From sequence record PZ386975.1: DNA of 64,000 bases; one strand, written 5' to 3'. Source of the stretch: a phage. Shown piece after piece: positions 1 through 57,052 of the stretch (positions within the stretch are counted from its first letter, which is position 1; each line of letters starts with the position of its first letter). The notes under the pieces are model-generated. The model did not search any database, was not told where the DNA came from, and saw only the letters and a program-made list of their open reading frames with translations. The translations under genes and the position numbers were made by a program.

Positions 1-337
<337 letters not shown>

Positions 338-12497: not shown

Positions 12498-13544
12498 ATG
12501 GAGAAGTATACGCTAACAAAACTTCCCGATTCAGTTACACATGTCTTTATTGACTCTGACAGTATTGCCTATAAAGGTGCTTGTGTAGTTGAGAAAGCAA
12601 AATATAAATACGTCAATAAACTCACAGCAGAAGAATCTGAATCATTTGATAATGCAAAAGATGCTGCAAGATGGTTAACAGACCAGAGAATCTTTGTGGA
12701 AGAGCTTGGCCTAACATTTGATGAAGATGAATGGGAAAGACAGACTTGGAAAGAAGCTAAGAGTGAAAAAGAAGCTATCATGGCTACTCAGCAGGTTCTT
12801 CAGGAATGGCTTAAGGTTGTTGGTAAAGAAAGAACTTGGGTAGGTTACTTAACAGAGAAGGGTGTACATAAACATAAAGACATTAAAGGTCTTGAGCACC
12901 AATATCAAGGTAACCGTAAAGAGGCTATCACACCAACACACTTAGTCGCTTGTCGTGAATACCTTCTGTCAAGACCAGAGTTCAAATTGATTCTTGATGG
13001 ATTTGAAGCTGACTCTATCGTGATTGCTAAAGCTGAAAAGATGGGTAAAAAGGCTGCCTTAATGAGCATTGATAAAGACCTTCGCCAAGCTGAAGGCACT
13101 TACTGCATTGATATGACCTATGAAAAATCACCTTTAATCTTCATTGCTGATAACAACGTTGGTGAAATTTGGGATTGTCCAATAAAATCGACACCAAAAG
13201 CTAAGAAGACAGTTGGGGTAGGTTTTAAATTTCTTTGCTATCAAGCTGTGGCTGGCGACAATGCGGATAATTATTTTGGTTTAAAGGGTGTTGGTAAAGC
13301 TACTGTGATGAAGGCTCTTGAAGGGAAAACAACTTACAAAGAGTGTCTTGATGCTATCTATGAACTTTATGCTAAGAAAGAGTCCTACACTTATGTCTCG
13401 TGGGATGGTCAAACAGTTACCAGAACACCTTTAGAACTAATGCAGCAACACTTCTTCTTAGCTTATCAGGAAAGAAATAAGAAAGATGATTTTACTTTTG
13501 ATAAGTATGGGTGGACACCAAATGTTAACTCAACAAACTCTTAA
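12498..13544 (+). CDS. 5'-3' exonuclease / flap endonuclease family
   Basis: Helix-hairpin-helix motif GLKGVGKATVMKALEG typical of FEN-type nucleases. Confidence 0.55.
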   Translation: MEKYTLTKLPDSVTHVFIDSDSIAYKGACVVEKAKYKYVNKLTAEESESFDNAKDAARWLTDQRIFVEELGLTFDEDEWERQTWKEAKSEKEAIMATQQVLQEWLKVVGKERTWVGYLTEKGVHKHKDIKGLEHQYQGNRKEAITPTHLVACREYLLSRPEFKLILDGFEADSIVIAKAEKMGKKAALMSIDKDLRQAEGTYCIDMTYEKSPLIFIADNNVGEIWDCPIKSTPKAKKTVGVGFKFLCYQAVAGDNADNYFGLKGVGKATVMKALEGKTTYKECLDAIYELYAKKESYTYVSWDGQTVTRTPLELMQQHFFLAYQERNKKDDFTFDKYGWTPNVNSTNS

Positions 13545-14013
13545 AGAGTACCTACATTATGACCCCGAAACAGGGGTCTTTACTTGGATTAAGAAATCTG
13601 CTAGACACACAAAAATTGGCTCTGTTGCAGGTACAAACTTAAGAGGGTACACCAGAATTTATTTGTTTGGTAAGGGTTATTATGCACATACCCTAGCCGT
13701 TCTGTATATGGATGGATACCTACCTGAGTGTGTTGACCATAAAAATCATGTAACACTAGACAATCGCTGGGTAAATCTTAGGGCATGTACGTTATCAGAG
13801 AACCAATGTAATAGGTTGCTCAATAAGAACAATAAATCAGGTGTTAAAGGTGTGTACTACAAAAAACAGTATGGTAAGTGGTCTACACAGATAACTTTTA
13901 AGAAGAGGGTCTACTTCTTCGGCAACTATGACACTATTGATGAAGCAGCAGAGGTTGTAAATAGGGAACGTCAACGTTTACACAAAGAGTTTGCTAATAA
14001 AGGTGATGAATGA
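13486..14013 (+). CDS. HNH-AP2 homing endonuclease
   Basis: HNH core (VDHKNHVTLDNRWVNLRACTLSEN) followed by AP2-like block (SGVKGVYYKKQYGKWSTQI...FGNYDTIDEAA). Confidence 0.65.
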   Translation: MILLLISMGGHQMLTQQTLKEYLHYDPETGVFTWIKKSARHTKIGSVAGTNLRGYTRIYLFGKGYYAHTLAVLYMDGYLPECVDHKNHVTLDNRWVNLRACTLSENQCNRLLNKNNKSGVKGVYYKKQYGKWSTQITFKKRVYFFGNYDTIDEAAEVVNRERQRLHKEFANKGDE

Positions 14014-36613: not shown

Positions 36614-37399
36614 ATGGGTATTGTAAAAATCATCAATGGTGATATCTTTGCAGCATTTGATAAAGGTAAGTTTGACGTCATTGGTCACGGTTGCAACTGT
36701 ATGAATTTAATGGGTGCAGGTATCGCTGACAAGATTTCTAAACTTTACCCAAAAGCATATGAGACTGATACAGAAGTTTATCTATATGCAGGCGGTATAG
36801 GCCACAAACCCTGTGAAAATTTACTGGGTAATTTCTCCGTAGCACGTTTAAAACAAGGTCGTATAGCTAACCTTTACACTCAGCTTAAGACTGGTAAAGA
36901 TGCCAGATACAGTGCTTTAGAGTCATCTTTGAAACAGCTTAACAGATACTGTGAAGTCAACCAGTTGAAGAAGGTTGGTCTACCTATGATTGGTGCAGGT
37001 ATCGGTGGGCTAGACCCTCAAGCCGTCACAGTTATCATTAATCAGGTGATGAAGAGTGTAGATGTGTATCTTTATGTCTACGAAGGAGAGATGTACCACA
37101 AGTTACGCTCAGGTTGGAAGAACTACTGTGAACCAGAATACTTTGCAGGTGTAGTAGTGTTCACTAATGATGCAGTTACCCTCTTCAGACGAAGAAAAGG
37201 TAAGATACATCAAAGTAACCCTCCGGTTGAAAAGATGTCTCTAAGTAACGCTCTAGTTACCCACCTGTCGAAGAGCAGTCACAGGATTGCAGTAACATTT
37301 GGCAGTGATGCAGATGCTTACATCTATGCAAGAACTGATGAGGATATCGAGACGGTTTTCTCTTCACCAGAGCTTACCTTCTTAGACGCAAAGAACTAA
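36614..37399 (+). CDS. macrodomain protein (TARG1/OARD1/DarG-like ADP-ribose processing)
   Basis: GDIFAAFDKGKFDVIGHGCNCMNLMGAGIA and LPMIGAGIGGL resemble the TARG1-type macrodomain (GDLF...AHCISEDCRMGAGIA; PRIGCGL) as recalled. Confidence 0.55.
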   Translation: MGIVKIINGDIFAAFDKGKFDVIGHGCNCMNLMGAGIADKISKLYPKAYETDTEVYLYAGGIGHKPCENLLGNFSVARLKQGRIANLYTQLKTGKDARYSALESSLKQLNRYCEVNQLKKVGLPMIGAGIGGLDPQAVTVIINQVMKSVDVYLYVYEGEMYHKLRSGWKNYCEPEYFAGVVVFTNDAVTLFRRRKGKIHQSNPPVEKMSLSNALVTHLSKSSHRIAVTFGSDADAYIYARTDEDIETVFSSPELTFLDAKN

Positions 37400-37472
37400 G
37401 AAACTTCGTAGTATATTCACAATAGACTAAGCCTTTCTTATCTGGTAAATTTTTCAGGTAAGGAGGGCTTTT

Positions 37473-37655
37473 TCATTTCAGAATTGTGCAGGTAGAGTTC
37501 TGTAGAGAAATCTATAGAGAAAATTTTGAACTCCAAAGAGAAAATTCATTTTCAAACTGTGCAGGTAATCTCCAAAGAGCTTTTCCATTTTCAAAACGTG
37601 CAGACCCCACTCAGGTCGGGCAAGAAAAATCATTTTAGAATTGTGCAGGTAGGTG
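37473..37655 (+). repeat. four direct repeats of about 22 bp (CATTTTCARAAYTGTGCAGGTA)
   Basis: Copies near 37476, 37546, 37585, 37632 in an ORF-free gap upstream of the small-gene array. Confidence 0.6.
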
Positions 37656-37827
37656 GGTGTAGGTGGGGCTGTCGCCATTTCTCACAAGGCTACCACATAT
37701 GAAAATAAAAGTCAACAGAAAAATTTGTAGCGGATTGAAAAATAATTCTTGATTGTAGTTCTGTTTTGTGGTAGTCATGCGCGCCCGTTTCATTCCATTT
37801 TTGCAAAAATATTTTTAAAATTTTTTA

Positions 37828-37856
37828 TTGACTCTTTGAACGGGTTTTTATAGTAT
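37828..37856 (+). promoter_or_regulatory. sigma70-like promoter
   Basis: TTGACT, 17 nt spacer, TAGTAT; upstream of first array gene. Confidence 0.5.
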
Positions 37857-37906
37857 TTGCATCAGACGGGCAATCAAGCCCACTTCCTAAACTGGAGAAT
37901 CTAAAA

Positions 37907-38113
37907 ATGCTTTACAGTCGTGAATTGATGGTTACAACTAACGTTAACACAAAGGTAAAACGTTTTTACATGCAAATTTGTGGCGTATGGTCTAGAATAT
38001 CAGAGGCTGACTATTGCAACTATGTAGGAACAGCTATAGAATCTAATTGCTACCTTACAAGAAACACTAAGAACTTTATAAGACAGACAGCAATTTACTA
38101 CTACGATAAATAA
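37907..38113 (+). CDS. array gene 1, hypothetical (68 aa)
   Basis: Own promoter and RBS. Confidence 0.4.
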   Translation: MLYSRELMVTTNVNTKVKRFYMQICGVWSRISEADYCNYVGTAIESNCYLTRNTKNFIRQTAIYYYDK

Positions 38114-38203
38114 AAAGTACTTTACAGGGGGCTTATAAGGCTGTACAGTAAGCCCCAGATAAAGAGCTTTACCACATTAACCCTTAAACTAGGAGATTCT
38201 AAA
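38113..38203 (+). promoter_or_regulatory. type A promoter-hairpin cassette
   Basis: AAGTACTTTACA, stem GGGGCTTA/TAAGCCCC with variable loop, AGATAAAGAGCTTTACCAC, RBS AGGAGA, ATG. Confidence 0.55.
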
Positions 38204-38587
38204 ATGGCATATCGCGCACCTAAATTCATCAATAAAGACAACTTTCGCAACGCACTGGAGAAGTCACTTGATGAGAATTTTAAAGGCAACGTTATTGTTG
38301 TTCACTCGTTTAATTTCAAGTATGATATCAACGGGAATAAAATCAACCATTACACGGCAACCATGATAGATGGTACACTATCAAGTGAAAAAGCCATTTT
38401 GCATGCACTTGCTGGACGTGGTAAAAACCTGATAAAATGTGATAAGAGACGTTATCAGGGTGGCGCATATGGTTATGATGATGCTGTTTATCATCTTGAA
38501 AATATGGGCTATCAAGTAGAAAAAGCTGGAGCGTCTCAAATAATCGGTAGTGATGGTTACGTAACTATCTTCAAAATTAACAAATAA
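38204..38587 (+). CDS. array gene 2, hypothetical (127 aa)
   Basis: Preceded by type A cassette; ends ...KINK. Confidence 0.45.
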   Translation: MAYRAPKFINKDNFRNALEKSLDENFKGNVIVVHSFNFKYDINGNKINHYTATMIDGTLSSEKAILHALAGRGKNLIKCDKRRYQGGAYGYDDAVYHLENMGYQVEKAGASQIIGSDGYVTIFKINK

Positions 38588-38672
38588 AGTACTTTACAAG
38601 GGGCTTATAGTTCGATAAAGTAAGCCCCAGATAAAGAGCTTTACCACTCAATCCTAAATTGGAGAACTAAAA
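38588..38672 (+). promoter_or_regulatory. type A promoter-hairpin cassette
   Basis: Near-identical to cassette at 41437-41522. Confidence 0.55.
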
Positions 38673-38966
38673 ATGGCTATTATCAAAAACGTTGTAATTG
38701 CTGCAAAAACTCGTGATGACGCTCGCGTTATGGCTAAAAAGTTATGCGGGAAAGTGGTTGACAACGGAAAACAATCTGCTGTAAGGTGGGGCGTGAAGGC
38801 TGATAAACAGTTGAAGTTAAAAAATTCACCGATAAACCTTTTTACATGTGTAAACACTATCGGGAAGACAACTGTATACACGAAAAAGGCATACATTAGA
38901 CGCGTAGCATTAACATCCCCCATTCGTACAATGAGAAGTTATGCAAAGCTGAAAATTAACAAATAA
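38673..38966 (+). CDS. array gene 3, hypothetical basic protein (97 aa)
   Basis: Preceded by type A cassette; ends ...KINK. Confidence 0.45.
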   Translation: MAIIKNVVIAAKTRDDARVMAKKLCGKVVDNGKQSAVRWGVKADKQLKLKNSPINLFTCVNTIGKTTVYTKKAYIRRVALTSPIRTMRSYAKLKINK

Positions 38967-55052: not shown

Positions 55053-55129
55053 CTCTGTTTAGCTCAGCTTGGTAGAGCGTTCCGTTTGGGGCGGTAAGGC
55101 CGGAGGTTCAAGTCCTCCAACAGAGACCA
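55053..55129 (+). tRNA. tRNA-Pro (TGG), tentative
   Basis: 7 bp acceptor ctctgtt/aacagag, T-arm ggaggttcaagtcctcc, encoded CCA. Confidence 0.6.
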
Positions 55130-55146
55130 AATTTAAAGGGGTTACT

Positions 55147-55503
55147 ATGAGATTTTTAAAAGAATGTCCAGTTCATGGTTTAACTGAACATAGCATTCAT
55201 AAGAATGGTAACGCCGGTAATAGAGTAAATTGTCTAAAATGTTGTGCATTAAGGACAAAACTTAGAGAGGATGCCAATAGGGAGAAAGCATACAAGTTTT
55301 ATGGCGATAGTTGCAAAATTTGTGGCTATAATAAATGTAAAAATGCTTTAGAATGGCATCACCTTAACCCAAACGAAAAAGAGAATACACCATCAAAAAT
55401 TATGGGTGCATCTTGGGAAAAGGTTAAAAAAGAACTTGATAAATGTGTTTTGCTCTGTGCTAATTGCCACAGAGAGGTTCATAGTGGAATTACAACGGTT
55501 TAA
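55147..55503 (+). CDS. HNH endonuclease inside tRNA cluster
   Basis: CKICG...EWHHLNP...CANCHREVH; start moved to MRFLKE because annotated start overlaps a tRNA. Confidence 0.55.
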   Translation: MRFLKECPVHGLTEHSIHKNGNAGNRVNCLKCCALRTKLREDANREKAYKFYGDSCKICGYNKCKNALEWHHLNPNEKENTPSKIMGASWEKVKKELDKCVLLCANCHREVHSGITTV

Positions 55504-55504
55504 T

Positions 55505-55579
55505 GTCGTAGAAGGCAAATGGTTAGCCACCTGACCTTCAATCAGTTGCTCGCAGGTTCGAATCCTGTCTACGACACCA
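55505..55579 (+). tRNA. tRNA, anticodon possibly TTC (Glu)
   Basis: Acceptor gtcgtag/ctacgac, T-arm gcaggttcgaatcctgt, CCA. Confidence 0.5.
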
Positions 55580-55586
55580 GTTTTGA

Positions 55587-55659
55587 CAGAAGACCAATTA
55601 CAGCAAACTTAATCTTATTCATCTGAAGGTAAATCGGACAAAGAAGAGATTTGGTCTGG
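55587..55659 (+). ncRNA. conserved stem element A (CAGAAGACCA ... TTGGTCTGG)
   Basis: Member of a 4-copy family with covarying closing stem and conserved TACAGCAA. Confidence 0.35.
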
Positions 55660-55670
55660 TCATTAAGAAT

Positions 55671-55747
55671 TGCGGGTATAGAGAAAGGGCGTCTCACATG
55701 TCTCATTAGCATGGTATCGGCAGGTTCGACTCCTGCACCCGCCTCCA
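55671..55747 (+). tRNA. tRNA-Met-like (CAT), non-canonical 1:72 pair
   Basis: Anticodon loop ctcatta, T-arm gcaggttcgactcctgc, CCA; acceptor pairing imperfect. Confidence 0.4.
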
Positions 55748-55753
55748 ATTTTG

Positions 55754-55813
55754 CAGAAGACCGTATTCAGCAACAAACTACTTTTTGCGGATAAAAGAAA
55801 AAACACGGTCTGG
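55754..55813 (+). ncRNA. conserved stem element B (CAGAAGACCG ... CGGTCTGG)
   Basis: Covarying G-C in place of A-T relative to element A. Confidence 0.35.
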
Positions 55814-55824
55814 CAATGTATTAA

Positions 55825-55901
55825 GGTTAGGAAGCACATAAGGTATGTGCGGTCGCCTGTTAAGCGAATGGCACAGGGTTCGAATCCCTGACTAACCGCC
55901 A
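55825..55901 (+). tRNA. tRNA-Asn (GTT)
   Basis: Acceptor ggttagg/actaacc, anticodon loop ctgttaa, T-arm cagggttcgaatccctg, CCA. Confidence 0.6.
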
Positions 55902-55970
55902 AATTTAGGAGAGAAGCGATTGCTCACCGATTTGTAAGGTGCAAGTCCTTAGCCTGAATAGAAATTAAAT

Positions 55971-56058
55971 GTGTCGTTATCCCGTAGATGGTAGCGGTGG
56001 GGACTGTAAATCCCTTGTCATTGAGACTCGGTAGGTTCGACTCCTACACGGCACACCA
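55971..56058 (+). tRNA. tRNA-Tyr (GTA), long variable arm
   Basis: Acceptor gtgtcgt/acggcac, anticodon loop ctgtaaa, T-arm gtaggttcgactcctac, CCA. Confidence 0.6.
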
Positions 56059-56063
56059 ATAAA

Positions 56064-56141
56064 GGTTATGTAGTTTAATTTGGTTAAAATACTCCCCTGT
56101 CACGGGAGATGATGAGGGTTCAAATCCCTTCGTAACCGCCA
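56064..56141 (+). tRNA. tRNA-Asp (GTC)
   Basis: Acceptor ggttatg/cgtaacc, anticodon stem-loop ctccc ctgtcac gggag, CCA. Confidence 0.65.
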
Positions 56142-56202
56142 ATTTTGAGAGGGCTATTTAGCCCCTCCCTTAAAGGGTTCTTACGAGTATCCTTTAAAGG
56201 AG

Positions 56203-56278
56203 CAGAAGACCAAATACAGCAAGAACGTATGAAAATTTCAAGCCAATTTAATTTTGAAAAATTTAAAACTTGGTCTGG
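56203..56278 (+). ncRNA. conserved stem element C (CAGAAGACCA ... TTGGTCTGG)
   Basis: Same family as A, B, D. Confidence 0.35.
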
Positions 56279-56291
56279 CTCAACAAATTTA

Positions 56292-56422
56292 CAGAAGACC
56301 GTTTACAGCAAAACTTAAACAATCTATTTCTCGGTAAAGAAAAGGCGAAGGTTCGATTCCTTCACTCGGCAGATGTCGAGTTGGTGTAATGGTAGCACTT
56401 AAGATGATAAACAACGGTCTGG
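56292..56422 (+). ncRNA. candidate Y-RNA-like ncRNA (element D) with permuted tRNA-like module
   Basis: Closing stem CAGAAGACCG/CGGTCTGG; internal T-arm gaaggttcgattccttc, acceptor-like hairpin actcggc-agat-gtcgagt, then D-arm-like ggtgtaatggtagcac; no conventional 5' acceptor partner. Confidence 0.4.
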
Positions 56423-56424
56423 TA

Positions 56425-56566
56425 ATTATCTTTGTAGATAAGTTATTAAGCTTACCTGTGAGTATGCGACCACAAAGGGTGAAAGGGTAAATTCTAGATT
56501 TAAACCCAAAAAGGCACATCGCTACAGACCTTAAGCAAGTCTGGGTAGCTTATCTACAAAGATAAT
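56425..56566 (+). repeat. 18 bp perfect inverted repeat enclosing about 106 nt
   Basis: attatctttgtagataag at 56425-56442 and its exact reverse complement at 56549-56566. Confidence 0.6.
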
Positions 56567-56571
56567 TTAAT

Positions 56572-56647
56572 GGAAGTGTAGCAGAATGGTGATGCGGCAG
56601 ACTTTTAATCTGACAGGCGATGGGTTCGAATCCCTCCACTTCTACCA
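56572..56647 (+). tRNA. tRNA-Lys (TTT)
   Basis: Acceptor ggaagtg/cacttct, anticodon loop cttttaa, T-loop ttcgaat, CCA. Confidence 0.55.
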
Positions 56648-56651
56648 AAAT

Positions 56652-56728
56652 GGTTCAGTCGCAGATAAGGTAATTCAAGGGTCTCATAAGACCTATGAAT
56701 GTGGGTTCGATTCCCATCTGAACCTCCA
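56652..56728 (+). tRNA. tRNA-Met or Ile2 (CAT)
   Basis: Exact 7 bp acceptor ggttcag/ctgaacc, anticodon loop ctcataa, CCA. Confidence 0.6.
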
Positions 56729-56730
56729 AT

Positions 56731-56805
56731 TGTGGGTTAGCATAAATGGTAATGCAAACGGCTGATAACCGTTAGAAGAGGGTTCGATACCCTCACCTAC
56801 AACCA
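56731..56805 (+). tRNA. tRNA-Ile (GAT)
   Basis: Anticodon stem-loop aacgg ctgataa ccgtt, T-arm gagggttcgataccctc, CCA. Confidence 0.65.
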
Positions 56806-56820
56806 ATTTCAATAAAGTTG

Positions 56821-56849
56821 TTGACATTGAGATGTGACTACTTTATAGT
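56821..56849 (+). promoter_or_regulatory. sigma70-like promoter inside tRNA cluster
   Basis: TTGACA, 17 nt spacer, TATAGT. Confidence 0.55.
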
Positions 56850-57052
56850 AACCTTAGTTTTCGTTGCGTAGCGTCTATTTTGCAAATTTAAAATAAATGC
56901 AAACGACAATGTTTTTCTGGCAGTAGCTTGATAGGCTAAACACCAGTGAGGTCTTCCAATCCCTCATCAAAGAATTTGGCGTACTAGCCCACGGTATGAT
57001 TAATAAAGTGGGCATCTTTAAGGGCTTTCTAAGAGAGTCTTTAAAGATTAAT

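What the first reader, a model, noticed from the sequence alone, without database searches (positions are those of the whole stretch)
37473..37655. Four direct repeats upstream of the small-gene array
CATTTTCARAAYTGTGCAGGTA occurs four times within 180 bp in an ORF-free gap, followed by a strong sigma70-like promoter. The pattern suggests operator sites for a regulator or an origin-like iteron set. The track ORF on the minus strand here is probably spurious.
Basis: seen in the sequence. Interest (0 to 1): 0.5.

Follow-up and report, generated by a model that had tools for sequence, protein, structure and literature searches.

The report
Conserved four-repeat DNA-binding array in Felix O1-like phage
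Four same-direction copies of a two-part DNA motif sit in a non-coding gap of a Felix O1-like phage, occur nowhere else in the genome and are kept across the whole phage subfamily, so they are almost certainly docking sites for a DNA-binding protein (most likely a replication-origin or control element), but the protein and the function are still unknown.

Summary
The repeats are real. Four head-to-tail copies of TCATTT-N6-GTGCAG(GTA) lie at 37473, 37546, 37585 and 37630; the third copy is degenerate at its 3' end. The core occurs nowhere else in the window or in a complete 87-kb relative (chance expectation 0.15 per 64 kb).

The window is a Felixounavirus. The array sits in a 507-bp gap, after the intrinsic terminator that follows the macro-domain gene and 175 bp before the first sigma70-like promoter of a small-gene array.

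Three to five copies hold this position in Felixounavirus, SUSP2-like, Mooglevirus, Erwinia Kolesnikvirus and a further distant lineage. The half-sites are near-invariant (47/48 columns against 75/137 elsewhere, p=3e-9), while spacers and flanks diverge.

No ORF is conserved, no RNA structure or Rfam family is detected, and nothing similar occurs in E. coli genomes, plasmids or other bacteria. These are therefore selected DNA sites for a sequence-specific protein, which remains unidentified.

Physical ends mapped in relatives place the array about 7.4 kb (about 8%) inside one genome end, at the inner edge of the terminal small-gene block.

Best guess: origin-type iterons (about 0.35). Rivals: a distal regulatory or insulator element for the small-gene (presumed early) block (about 0.25), and a T5-like DNA-entry boundary (about 0.07). 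Interest is moderate.

The parts
36614..37399 (+). Upstream gene: 261-aa macro-domain protein (annotated 'phosphatase' in relatives), the last gene of the long + strand block. The repeat array follows this gene in every lineage examined.
   Evidence: Pfam Macro 1e-07 and phrog_335; synteny.
37429..37470 (+). Intrinsic terminator: a 17-bp stem followed by a T-run. The T-run is also the A/T tract of repeat 1.
   Evidence: Terminator scan; annotated as a terminator in phage Barry; conserved in the alignment.
37473..37495 (+). Repeat 1: TCATTTCAGAATTGTGCAGGTAG.
37499..37522 (+). Tandem pair TCTGTAGAGAAA / TCTATAGAGAAA in the long spacer between repeats 1 and 2. The TRTAGAGA motif is also enriched in the terminal non-coding region.
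   Evidence: (family D4).
37546..37568 (+). Repeat 2: TCATTTTCAAACTGTGCAGGTAA, preceded by CTCCAAAGAG and an A-tract.
37585..37607 (+). Repeat 3, degenerate at its 3' end: CCATTTTCAAAACGTGCAGACCC, preceded by CTCCAAAGAG and a T-tract.
37630..37652 (+). Repeat 4: TCATTTTAGAATTGTGCAGGTAG. Repeats 3-4 are the only stretch of the gap that still aligns by BLAST with an Erwinia phage.
   Evidence: (H90).
37653..37707 (+). Variable 55-bp cassette, G-rich/mixed in this phage. Felix O1, Mooglevirus, the SUSP2-like locus and Erwinia phages carry a C-rich polypyrimidine tract of the same or nearly the same length.
37708..37776 (+). Conserved non-coding block (AAAGTCAAsAGAAAAATTTGTAG...TTGATTGTAGTTCTGTTTTGTGGTAGTC), shared by Felixounavirus, the SUSP2-like locus and Mooglevirus. 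Function unknown.
   Evidence: Alignment.
37800..37856 (+). A/T-rich upstream stretch plus a sigma70-like promoter (TTGACT-17-TAGTAT), the first promoter of the small-gene array. Its core is conserved as far as Erwinia phages.
37907..38113 (+). First gene of the small-gene array (68 aa, phrog_5293, unknown function). No homologue was detected downstream of the repeats in the Erwinia or L070 lineages.

Best explanation
The four repeats are a unique cis-acting array of asymmetric, two-part DNA sites. Each has the half-sites TCATTT and GTGCAG(GTA), one helical turn apart, and is preceded by an A5 or T5 tract. I propose that a sequence-specific DNA-binding protein binds them head-to-tail.

SHOWN:
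- The array is real, unique in the genome and non-coding.
- It gives no RNA-structure signal.
- It is conserved in place, copy number and half-site sequence across the subfamily Ounavirinae.
- It lies in a stretch bounded upstream by an intrinsic-terminator-like hairpin and downstream by the next sigma70-like promoter, so it is presumably little transcribed.

INFERRED (general claim, about 0.85): it is a protein-binding nucleoprotein site under selection.

INFERRED (the specific mechanism I commit to, about 0.35): it is an iteron-type origin of replication. A phage-encoded initiator, not yet recognisable by sequence, would occupy the four sites and bend the DNA at the A/T tracts. It would help open the neighbouring A/T-rich promoter-proximal DNA, possibly aided by transcription from the flanking promoter. 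The phage's fused primase-helicase and family-A polymerase could then start replication.
For: - Real and non-random: four copies in 180 bp against 0.145 expected per 64 kb.
- Unique: no other copy in the window or in a complete 87-kb relative.
- Conserved: three to five copies directly after the macro-domain gene's terminator in Felixounavirus, the SUSP2-like locus, Mooglevirus, Kolesnikvirus and the L070 lineage (46-58% aa identity).
- Selective conservation: half-site columns are at least 90% identical in 47/48 cases against 75/137 for the rest of the 185 bp (Fisher p=2.6e-9), while the 7-nt spacer varies. Repeats 3-4 are the only part of the gap still alignable with an Erwinia phage.
- Not coding and not RNA.
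- Restricted to Ounavirinae in viral, metagenome, genome, E. coli and plasmid collections.
- Origin-like traits: head-to-tail asymmetric sites with two half-sites a helical turn apart, as in Rep-type iterons (own knowledge); a single locus at the end of the replication/nucleotide-metabolism gene block; an A/T-rich stretch (76% AT, seventh highest in the window) and a strong promoter nearby.
- In the L070 lineage a very A/T-rich TTAACA-repeat stretch directly abuts the last repeat.
- The gene downstream of the repeats is not conserved between lineages, so the array tracks the core genome rather than one regulated gene.
Against: - No initiator or other Rep-like protein was found among the 26 window proteins scanned or in two annotated relatives.
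- Spacing is 37-45 and 73-78 bp, not the roughly 22 bp of classical iterons, and helical phasing is not conserved between genera.
- In this phage a 55-bp GC-containing cassette, not an unwinding element, adjoins the repeats.
- No GC-skew inflection is seen; skew follows transcription direction.
- Phages with T7-like replisomes are known to start replication from promoters rather than iterons (own knowledge).
- No experimental data on Felix O1 replication origins were found.
Confidence: 0.35

Rival explanations
1. Distal regulatory or insulator element of the terminal small-gene block (presumed early genes). A phage regulator made after infection, for example the conserved 99-aa HTH_3 protein, or a host factor, would occupy the four sites. 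It would either control the first promoter of the array from a distance or act as a roadblock backing up the terminator. Either way, transcription of the upstream 30-kb block and of the small-gene array would be kept separate.
For: - The array lies exactly between a strong terminator and the first promoter of the array.
- The array and that promoter, with its A/T-rich upstream stretch, are co-conserved as far as Erwinia phages.
- The only recognisable DNA-binding regulator (HTH_3, 4.9e-10) is present in 261 records, the same Felixounavirus/SUSP-like/Mooglevirus set that carries the GTGCAGGTA-type motif.
- Precedent: T7 Gp5.7, a small phage DNA-binding protein that shuts off host-polymerase promoters on the phage genome (abstract of PMC5569994, listed).
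Against: - The last repeat ends 175 bp upstream of the -35 hexamer, and no motif copy overlaps or adjoins the promoter.
- None of the other promoter-like modules of the small-gene array carries the motif.
- The sites are asymmetric direct repeats, whereas Cro/C1-type HTH dimers normally read inverted repeats (own knowledge).
- Erwinia phages keep the repeats but show no tblastn homologue of the HTH_3 protein.
- The gene downstream of the promoter is not conserved between lineages.
Confidence: 0.25
2. Boundary signal of a first-entering terminal DNA segment, analogous in position to the T5 injection-stop region. A protein bound to the repeats would pause or mark DNA entry, or processing, about 8% from the genome end. 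The terminal small-gene array would then be expressed before the rest of the genome.
For: - Ends mapped in relatives: the PhageTerm DTR of Pr103Blw corresponds to window 44430-45040.
- The UAB_Phi87 Bal31/SpeI fragments (4322 + 2819 = 7141 bp) fit the same place: SpeI sites 6568 bp apart plus the 608-bp DTR give 7176 bp.
- The array therefore lies 7.4-7.6 kb, about 8%, inside one end, at the inner edge of the small-gene block.
- The same layout holds in the L070 lineage even though the block contains different genes.
- The T5 stop region is likewise a conserved untranslated repeat cluster at 7.9%.
- In the Erwinia and L070 lineages the right half-site is one or two mismatches from a DnaA box, the element Davison invokes for T5.
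Against: - No evidence of staged DNA entry in Felix O1-like phages was found.
- Which end enters first is unknown.
- The genes of the array are transcribed outwards.
- The DTR is 0.6 kb, not about 10 kb, and the repeats lie outside it.
- In the window the DnaA-box resemblance is lost (3 mismatches).
- The T5 mechanism is itself only a hypothesis.
Confidence: 0.07
3. Binding sites for a host DNA-binding protein (nucleoid-associated protein, DnaA or a transcription factor) recruited by the phage.
For: - The hosts of all lineages whose host is recorded are Enterobacterales.
- A/T tracts flank each site.
- The right half-site is near a DnaA box in two lineages.
Against: - I could match no known enterobacterial factor's consensus (DnaA, IHF, Fis, CRP, MarA/SoxS/Rob, Tus-Ter, checked by eye from memory).
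- The paired motif is absent from representative bacterial genomes of Enterobacterales and from 5,426 E. coli genomes.
- The right half-site differs between phage lineages (GTGCAGGTA against GTGCATAG), which is better explained by a co-evolving phage protein.
Confidence: 0.1
4. No DNA-level function: the repeats are a neutral tandem duplication, part of a small protein-coding gene, or a structured RNA.
For: - Units 2-4 look like 39-45-bp tandem duplications (family D1).
- Several GenBank records annotate small ORFs here.
- In part of the Felixounavirus genomes a 66-aa minus-strand ORF with a promoter-like site is open.
Against: - The half-sites survive where all surrounding non-coding DNA has diverged beyond alignment.
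- The ORFs are broken by stops or frameshifts in other genera, and variable sites fall 11/6/11 by codon position.
- Spacings are not multiples of 3 in Mooglevirus or Erwinia phages.
- RNA folding z-scores are 0.05 and -0.37, and no Rfam family comes near its threshold.
Confidence: 0.05

Closest known systems
Iteron-type replication origins (lambda ori, P1 oriR, F/pSC101/R6K Rep-iteron origins, origins of lactococcal lytic phages)
   Same: - Three to five asymmetric repeats of about 20 bp in one orientation.
- Each repeat has two conserved halves a helical turn apart.
- A single locus per genome, in non-coding DNA next to a promoter and A/T-rich DNA, at the end of the replication gene block.
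   Different: - Period of about 40 bp (and one gap of about 75 bp) instead of about 22 bp.
- No recognisable initiator gene next to it or anywhere in the genome.
- No clear unwinding element abutting the repeats in this phage.
- No DnaA or IHF sites.
- Origin activity is untested.
Phage T5 injection-stop region (Repeat Region 3 of the left terminal repeat; Davison preprint 10.1101/866236)
   Same: - A highly conserved untranslated repeat cluster about 8% from a genome end.
- It lies at the inner edge of a terminal block of small genes whose content varies between relatives.
   Different: - The T5 cluster is 1.2 kb, full of inverted repeats, palindromes and DnaA boxes, and lies within a 10-kb terminal repeat.
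- Here there are 180 bp of four direct repeats outside a 0.6-kb DTR.
- There is no sequence similarity.
- Two-step DNA transfer is not known for Felix O1-like phages.
Asymmetric or multi-site phage regulator targets (P1 C1 operators, phi29 p4 sites, Mu repressor sites)
   Same: Non-palindromic sites of about 17-25 bp in multiple copies in an intergenic control region between transcription units (own knowledge).
   Different: - Those sites overlap or closely flank the promoters they control, and usually occur at several loci.
- Here there is one locus, 175-350 bp from the nearest promoter.
- The other promoter-like modules of the array lack the motif.
Tus-Ter type polar barriers
   Same: Asymmetric sites of about 23 bp, all in one orientation, in a position where they could block traffic in one direction.
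   Different: - There is no match to the Ter core GTTGTAAC.
- The sites are clustered within 180 bp rather than dispersed.
- No Tus-like gene is known in these phages.

Membership tests
Iteron-type origin of replication | Three or more direct repeats of about 17-23 bp in the same orientation | tested here: met
   Four copies on the + strand at 37473, 37546, 37585 and 37630; three to five copies in relatives.
Iteron-type origin of replication | Regular spacing of about two helical turns (about 22 bp) | tested here: not met
   Spacing is 73/39/45 bp in the window and 37-45 or 73-78 bp in relatives.
Iteron-type origin of replication | A/T-rich DNA-unwinding element directly next to the repeats | tested here: inconclusive
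   The nearest A/T-rich stretch (76% AT) lies about 130 bp away at the promoter, and a 55-bp GC-containing cassette adjoins the repeats. In the L070 lineage an A/T-rich TTAACA-repeat stretch does abut them.
Iteron-type origin of replication | Cognate initiator (Rep/O-like) protein encoded by the element | tested here: inconclusive
   No Rep-like or initiator domain was found in the 26 window proteins scanned (Pfam, PHROGs; three of them also against PDB sequences) or in two annotated genomes. Many proteins remain unannotated.
Iteron-type origin of replication | Replication actually starts there | not testable with these tools
   This needs marker-frequency analysis, 2D gels or plasmid-based origin assays.
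Operator array of a phage repressor or regulator | Sites overlap or adjoin the regulated promoter | tested here: not met
   The last repeat ends at 37652 and the -35 hexamer starts at 37828. No motif copy is found at that promoter or at the other promoter-like modules of the array.
Operator array of a phage repressor or regulator | A regulator gene is present in the genome | tested here: inconclusive
   One HTH_3 protein (99 aa) is present in Felixounavirus, SUSP-like and Mooglevirus genomes but is not detected in Erwinia phages that also carry the repeats. Binding is untested.
T5-like injection-stop region | Conserved untranslated repeat cluster at the inner edge of the terminal segment, about 8% from a physical end | tested here: met
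   The ends map to window 44430-45040 by homology to the Pr103Blw DTR and the UAB_Phi87 Bal31/SpeI data. The array lies 7.4-7.6 kb inside. This is positional only.
T5-like injection-stop region | Cluster of DnaA boxes, inverted repeats and palindromes inside a long terminal repeat | tested here: not met
   The array consists of direct repeats only and lies outside the 0.6-kb DTR. The right half-site is 3 mismatches from a DnaA box in the window (1-2 in the Erwinia and L070 lineages).
T5-like injection-stop region | Two-step DNA transfer | not testable with these tools
   No report was found for Felix O1-like phages.
Structured non-coding RNA or small protein gene | Conserved structure, or a conserved reading frame with a coding substitution pattern | tested here: not met
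   Folding z-scores are 0.05 and -0.37, and there are no Rfam matches near threshold. ORFs are broken in other genera, and variable sites by codon position are 11/6/11.

The most novel reading that the evidence does not exclude
The repeat array is the inner boundary signal of a terminal 'first-in' module. In Felix O1-like phages, the last roughly 8% of the packaged genome (the small-gene array next to the 0.6-kb terminal repeat) would be delivered or activated first. A protein bound to the four repeats would pause DNA entry, or insulate the module, until early products are made. That would make Ounavirinae a second, unrelated phage group with T5-style staged genome delivery.
Probability: 0.06. 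Interest if true: 0.8.

Novelty: new member of a known kind. Interest (0 to 1): 0.42.

Why it matters
Felix O1-like phages are classical Salmonella typing phages and are widely used in biocontrol. According to the Felix O1 genome paper, how their transcription is timed is not known, and I found no report that locates their replication origin.

This array is the only unique non-coding element of its kind seen in the genome. It is conserved across five lineages (four named or provisional genera and one unnamed lineage), and it marks the junction between the replication/metabolism block and the terminal small-gene block.

- It is therefore a concrete handle for origin mapping, for finding an unknown sequence-specific DNA-binding protein, and for testing how the presumed early module is insulated or delivered.
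- If it is an origin or an essential control site, it also matters for engineering these phages and for plasmid-borne interference with them.

Tried and rejected
- Terminal repeat or packaging site: rejected. The mapped DTR lies at window 44430-45040, about 7 kb away. The start of the UAB_Phi87 GenBank record in the tRNA cluster is not its physical end.
- General phage promoter class: rejected. The motif is unique in the genome.
- Structured RNA or Rfam family: rejected.
- Small protein genes on either strand: rejected.
- The G-rich cassette after repeat 4 as an inverted copy of the C-rich cassette of Felix O1: not supported. The reverse-complement alignment score is 14 against a shuffle mean of 11.2, and 134/1000 shuffles do as well.
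- Contigs and records ending in the gap as evidence of a physical end: rejected as assembly breaks in the C-rich tract. One contig is fused to a Nextera adapter, one is chimeric, and one is a circular-assembly overlap.
- Known host-factor consensus sites (DnaA, IHF, Fis, CRP, marbox, Ter, LexA and others): compared by eye from memory, with no convincing match in the window. Only the Erwinia and L070 versions approach a DnaA box.
- Copies in hosts, plasmids, satellites or other phages: none found.
- The downstream 68-aa gene as the cognate binder: unlikely. No homologue follows the repeats in the Erwinia or L070 lineages.
- Search for an initiator or DNA-binding domain in neighbouring and replication-module proteins: only the macro, primase-helicase, HNH/AP2 and HTH_3 domains were recognised.
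- Literature on Felix O1 origins, transcription or DNA entry: nothing relevant. The Felix O1 genome paper lists other direct repeats but not these.

Full report
**Identity of the window**

The 2-kb stretch around the finding matches 227 phage records at 80-99% identity. Almost all are Felix O1-like myoviruses (Ounavirinae, Felixounavirus) of E. coli, Salmonella and Shigella.

The finding lies in a 507-bp gap (37400-37906). Upstream is a 261-aa macro-domain gene (36614-37399; Pfam Macro, phrog_335). Downstream is a 68-aa gene of unknown function (37907-38113).

In annotated relatives the macro-domain gene is the last gene of a roughly 30-kb co-directional block. That block encodes the primase-helicase, exonuclease, ribonucleotide reductases, rIIA/B and spanins. 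The 68-aa gene is the first of an array of about 14 small genes of unknown function.

**The observation**

Four same-strand copies are present at 37473-37495, 37546-37568, 37585-37607 and 37630-37652, with spacing of 73, 39 and 45 bp.

The corrected 23-mer TCATTTYMRAAYTGTGCAGGTAR matches three copies exactly. The third copy keeps CATTT-N7-GTGCAG but diverges after that.

The core CATTT-N7-GTGCA is expected 0.145 times per 64 kb. It occurs four times in 180 bp and nowhere else in the window. In the complete 87-kb genome of phage JohannRWettstein it occurs only at the orthologous site. The repeats are therefore real, non-random and unique in the genome.

**Anatomy of the gap**

- An intrinsic terminator (17-bp stem plus T-run, 37429-37470) ends exactly where repeat 1 begins.
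- Each repeat is preceded by an A5 or T5 tract and, further upstream, by a purine-rich element (CTCCAAAGAG, or GGTCGGGCAAG before repeat 4). The full unit is therefore about 40 bp.
- The long spacer after repeat 1 holds a TCTGTAGAGAAA/TCTATAGAGAAA pair.
- After repeat 4 comes a 55-bp variable cassette.
- Next comes a strongly conserved 70-bp block.
- Then comes an A/T-rich stretch and a sigma70-like promoter (TTGACT-17-TAGTAT, 37828-37856), 175 bp from the last repeat.

**Conservation**

The gap is 86-95% identical in about 240 Felixounavirus records and about 72% identical in Mooglevirus. In an Erwinia phage (Kolesnikvirus) only repeats 3-4 are still detectable by BLAST.

Reading the sequences shows four copies directly after the macro-domain gene's terminator in the following:
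- Felix O1;
- Citrobacter phage Michonne;
- the SUSP2-like locus L029;
- Erwinia phage Ea_Tu10, where the motif reads CATTTT-N6-GTGCATAG.

Some Felixounavirus genomes, such as phiWec172 and Si3, have three copies.

A further distant lineage (IMG/VR contig L070/L276, 46-58% amino-acid identity, about 84.9 kb) has five copies in the same place, two of them degenerate.

In an alignment of 27 Felixounavirus, SUSP2-like and Mooglevirus gaps, the half-site columns (TCATTT, GTGCAG) are at least 90% identical in 47 of 48 cases. The rest of the 185 bp reaches that level in 75 of 137 columns (Fisher p=2.6e-9). The 7-nt spacer between the half-sites shows 2-6 variants per copy.

The pattern is two short blocks conserved one helical turn apart, a free but A/T-rich spacer, and flanking A/T tracts. 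This is what a protein reading two successive major grooves would leave.

**What it is not**

- Not a protein gene. The 66-aa minus-strand ORF (37678->37478) has no start codon in C-type Felixounavirus genomes. It is frameshifted in four genomes and carries 4-5 stops in Mooglevirus and the SUSP2-like locus. Variable sites fall 11/6/11 over codon positions, and the other three ORFs tested fare no better. Repeat spacings are not multiples of three in Mooglevirus or Erwinia phages.
- Not a structured RNA. Folding z-scores are 0.05 (+ strand) and -0.37 (- strand), and no Rfam family comes near its threshold.
- Not a promoter class, because it is unique in the genome.
- Not borrowed from hosts or other mobile elements. 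There is no blastn match in 5,426 E. coli genomes or 72,556 plasmids. A two-site pattern scan of viral, genome and metagenome collections returned only Ounavirinae as true clusters. The remaining hits were unrelated tandem repeats in other organisms.

**Relation to the genome ends**

Several records and contigs of relatives end inside this gap, which suggested a physical end. That idea is rejected.
- The breaks fall in the C-rich tract after repeat 4.
- One contig end is fused to a Nextera adapter, and one is chimeric.
- A further contig, in the L070 lineage, ends in a 55-nt circular-assembly overlap.

The real ends are elsewhere. The PhageTerm-defined 581-bp DTR of Pr103Blw maps to window 44430-45040. 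In UAB_Phi87 the homologous 614 bp lies between SpeI sites 6568 bp apart. Adding the published 608-bp DTR gives 7176 bp, which matches the two Bal31-sensitive SpeI fragments (4322 + 2819 = 7141 bp).

The repeat array is therefore 7.4-7.6 kb, about 8% of the genome, inside one end of the packaged DNA. It sits at the inner edge of the small-gene array (37907-43903). That array is followed by a 1.75-kb non-coding terminal region.

The same layout holds in the L070 lineage, although the genes inside the block are different. The order is macro-domain gene, repeats, promoter, gene block, non-coding TTAACA/TGTTAA repeat region, convergent genes.

**Who binds?**

This is unknown.
- The genes of the small-gene array have no recognisable domains.
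- No homologue of the window's first downstream gene follows the repeats in the Erwinia or L070 lineages.
- The replication module gives only primase-helicase, HNH/AP2 and MazG-type hits. Three unknown proteins have no PDB relatives by sequence.
- The one recognisable regulator is a 99-aa Cro/C1-type HTH protein encoded outside the window (HTH_3, 4.9e-10). It is found in 261 Felixounavirus, SUSP-like and Mooglevirus records but not in Erwinia phages. Such dimers normally read inverted repeats (own knowledge).

**Interpretation**

The general claim is that this is a selected, unique protein-binding DNA array. I hold it at about 0.85.

For the function I commit to an origin-type iteron array, at about 0.35. 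The reasons are as follows:
- It is a single locus per genome.
- The sites are head-to-tail, asymmetric and two-part.
- It lies between a predicted terminator and the next promoter, at the end of the replication/metabolism block.
- It is next to a strong promoter and A/T-rich DNA.
- It tracks the core genome rather than a particular downstream gene.
- From my own knowledge of lambdoid, P1, SPP1 and lactococcal phages, unique non-coding repeat arrays in phages have most often turned out to be origins.

The following count against an origin:
- No initiator was identified.
- The period is about 40 bp.
- No unwinding element abuts the repeats in this phage.
- The replisome is T7-like, a type known to start from promoters.

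A distal regulatory or insulator role for the small-gene block is the main rival (about 0.25). A host-factor site (about 0.10), a T5-like DNA-entry boundary (about 0.07) and no function, ORF or RNA (about 0.05) follow.

**Novelty and interest**

I found no description of these repeats. The Felix O1 genome paper lists twelve direct repeats of at least 24 bp, describes other ones, and states that temporal control of transcription is unknown.

The kind of feature, an iteron-like array in a phage intergenic region, is familiar. The motif, its conservation across the subfamily and its position about 8% from the genome end are new details.

Interest is moderate. The array is a well-defined and testable handle on open questions for an important phage group, but nothing here shows that it departs from known principles.

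Noticed in passing
window 43904-45656 (DTR-homologous part 44430-~45040): A 1.75-kb stretch with no ORF of 50 aa or more lies between the convergent gene blocks. Its core is homologous to the PhageTerm-defined 581-bp direct terminal repeat of phage Pr103Blw. It is packed with CTTGTTA(A/G)/CTGTTAAG units at a 10-12-bp period, first as TTAACA and then as TGTTAA. These are probably sites for a packaging or end-binding protein. From memory, the half-site and 11-bp period also resemble ArcA direct repeats.
   Followed up: partly
window 38112-38214, 38584-38686, 38963-39065, 39580-39639, 40637-40739, 41433-41535; second family at 40274-40398, 41139-41262, 42398-42513, 42969-43045, 43550-43627: Many genes of the small-gene array are preceded by a repeated 60-100-bp module. 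It consists of a sigma70-like promoter (e.g. TTTACA-17-TACAGT) whose spacer contains a GC-rich hairpin (GGGGCTTA...TAAGCCCC), followed by a conserved leader and ribosome-binding site. There are two module families. The Felix O1 paper noted two of these repeats without interpreting them.
   Followed up: partly
window 37653-37707; L002 1054-1108; L016, L017 and L007 ends: The 55-bp cassette after repeat 4 exists in two forms of equal length. Felix O1, Mooglevirus, the SUSP2-like locus and Erwinia phages carry a C-rich polypyrimidine tract, G4-prone on the other strand. This window carries a mixed, G-rich form. Three independent assemblies break within 2 nt of each other inside the C tract, one of them fused to a Nextera adapter, which suggests a sequencing or assembly obstacle.
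   Followed up: partly
window 37715->37687 and 37678->37478 (minus strand): The G-type cassette creates a leftward promoter-like site (TTGACT-17-TGgTAGCCT) and the ATG of a 66-aa ORF that reads antisense through the repeats. The ORF is open in 12 of 14 G-type genomes but is absent or broken elsewhere. It is probably fortuitous, but an antisense transcript cannot be excluded.
   Followed up: partly
L004 1466-1605 (Erwinia phage Ea_Tu10); L070 770-1020: In the Erwinia and L070 lineages the right half-site reads CTATGCACA or TTATGCACG, one or two mismatches from the DnaA box TTATNCACA. In the window it is three mismatches away.
   Followed up: no
L093 8153-8766 (JN225449 record ~15.15-15.77 kb); L006: The GenBank record of UAB_Phi87 starts inside the tRNA cluster, not at its experimentally determined 608-bp terminal repeat. 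The DTR-homologous stretch lies about 15 kb into the record.
   Followed up: yes
window 37501, 37513, 44232, 44638, 45303, 45362, 45519: The octamer TRTAGAGA occurs 16 times in the window (5.9 expected). Seven of these fall in the gap with the repeats or in the terminal non-coding region.
   Followed up: no
L026 (IMG/VR 3300045988_004180) from ~3520; L070/L276 (3300045988_063805): One metagenome contig switches after repeat 3 into unrelated GC-rich sequence that looks like an ATPase gene, so it is probably a chimeric assembly. Another contig carries a 3,471-bp assembly redundancy (88,375 bp against 84,893 bp for its sister contig).
   Followed up: partly
window 55053-60305: A cluster of 23 tRNA genes (Rfam), as expected for Felix O1-like phages.
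   Followed up: no
window 13486-14013: An HNH endonuclease with an AP2 DNA-binding domain (a homing-endonuclease type) is inserted in the replication/metabolism block.
   Followed up: no
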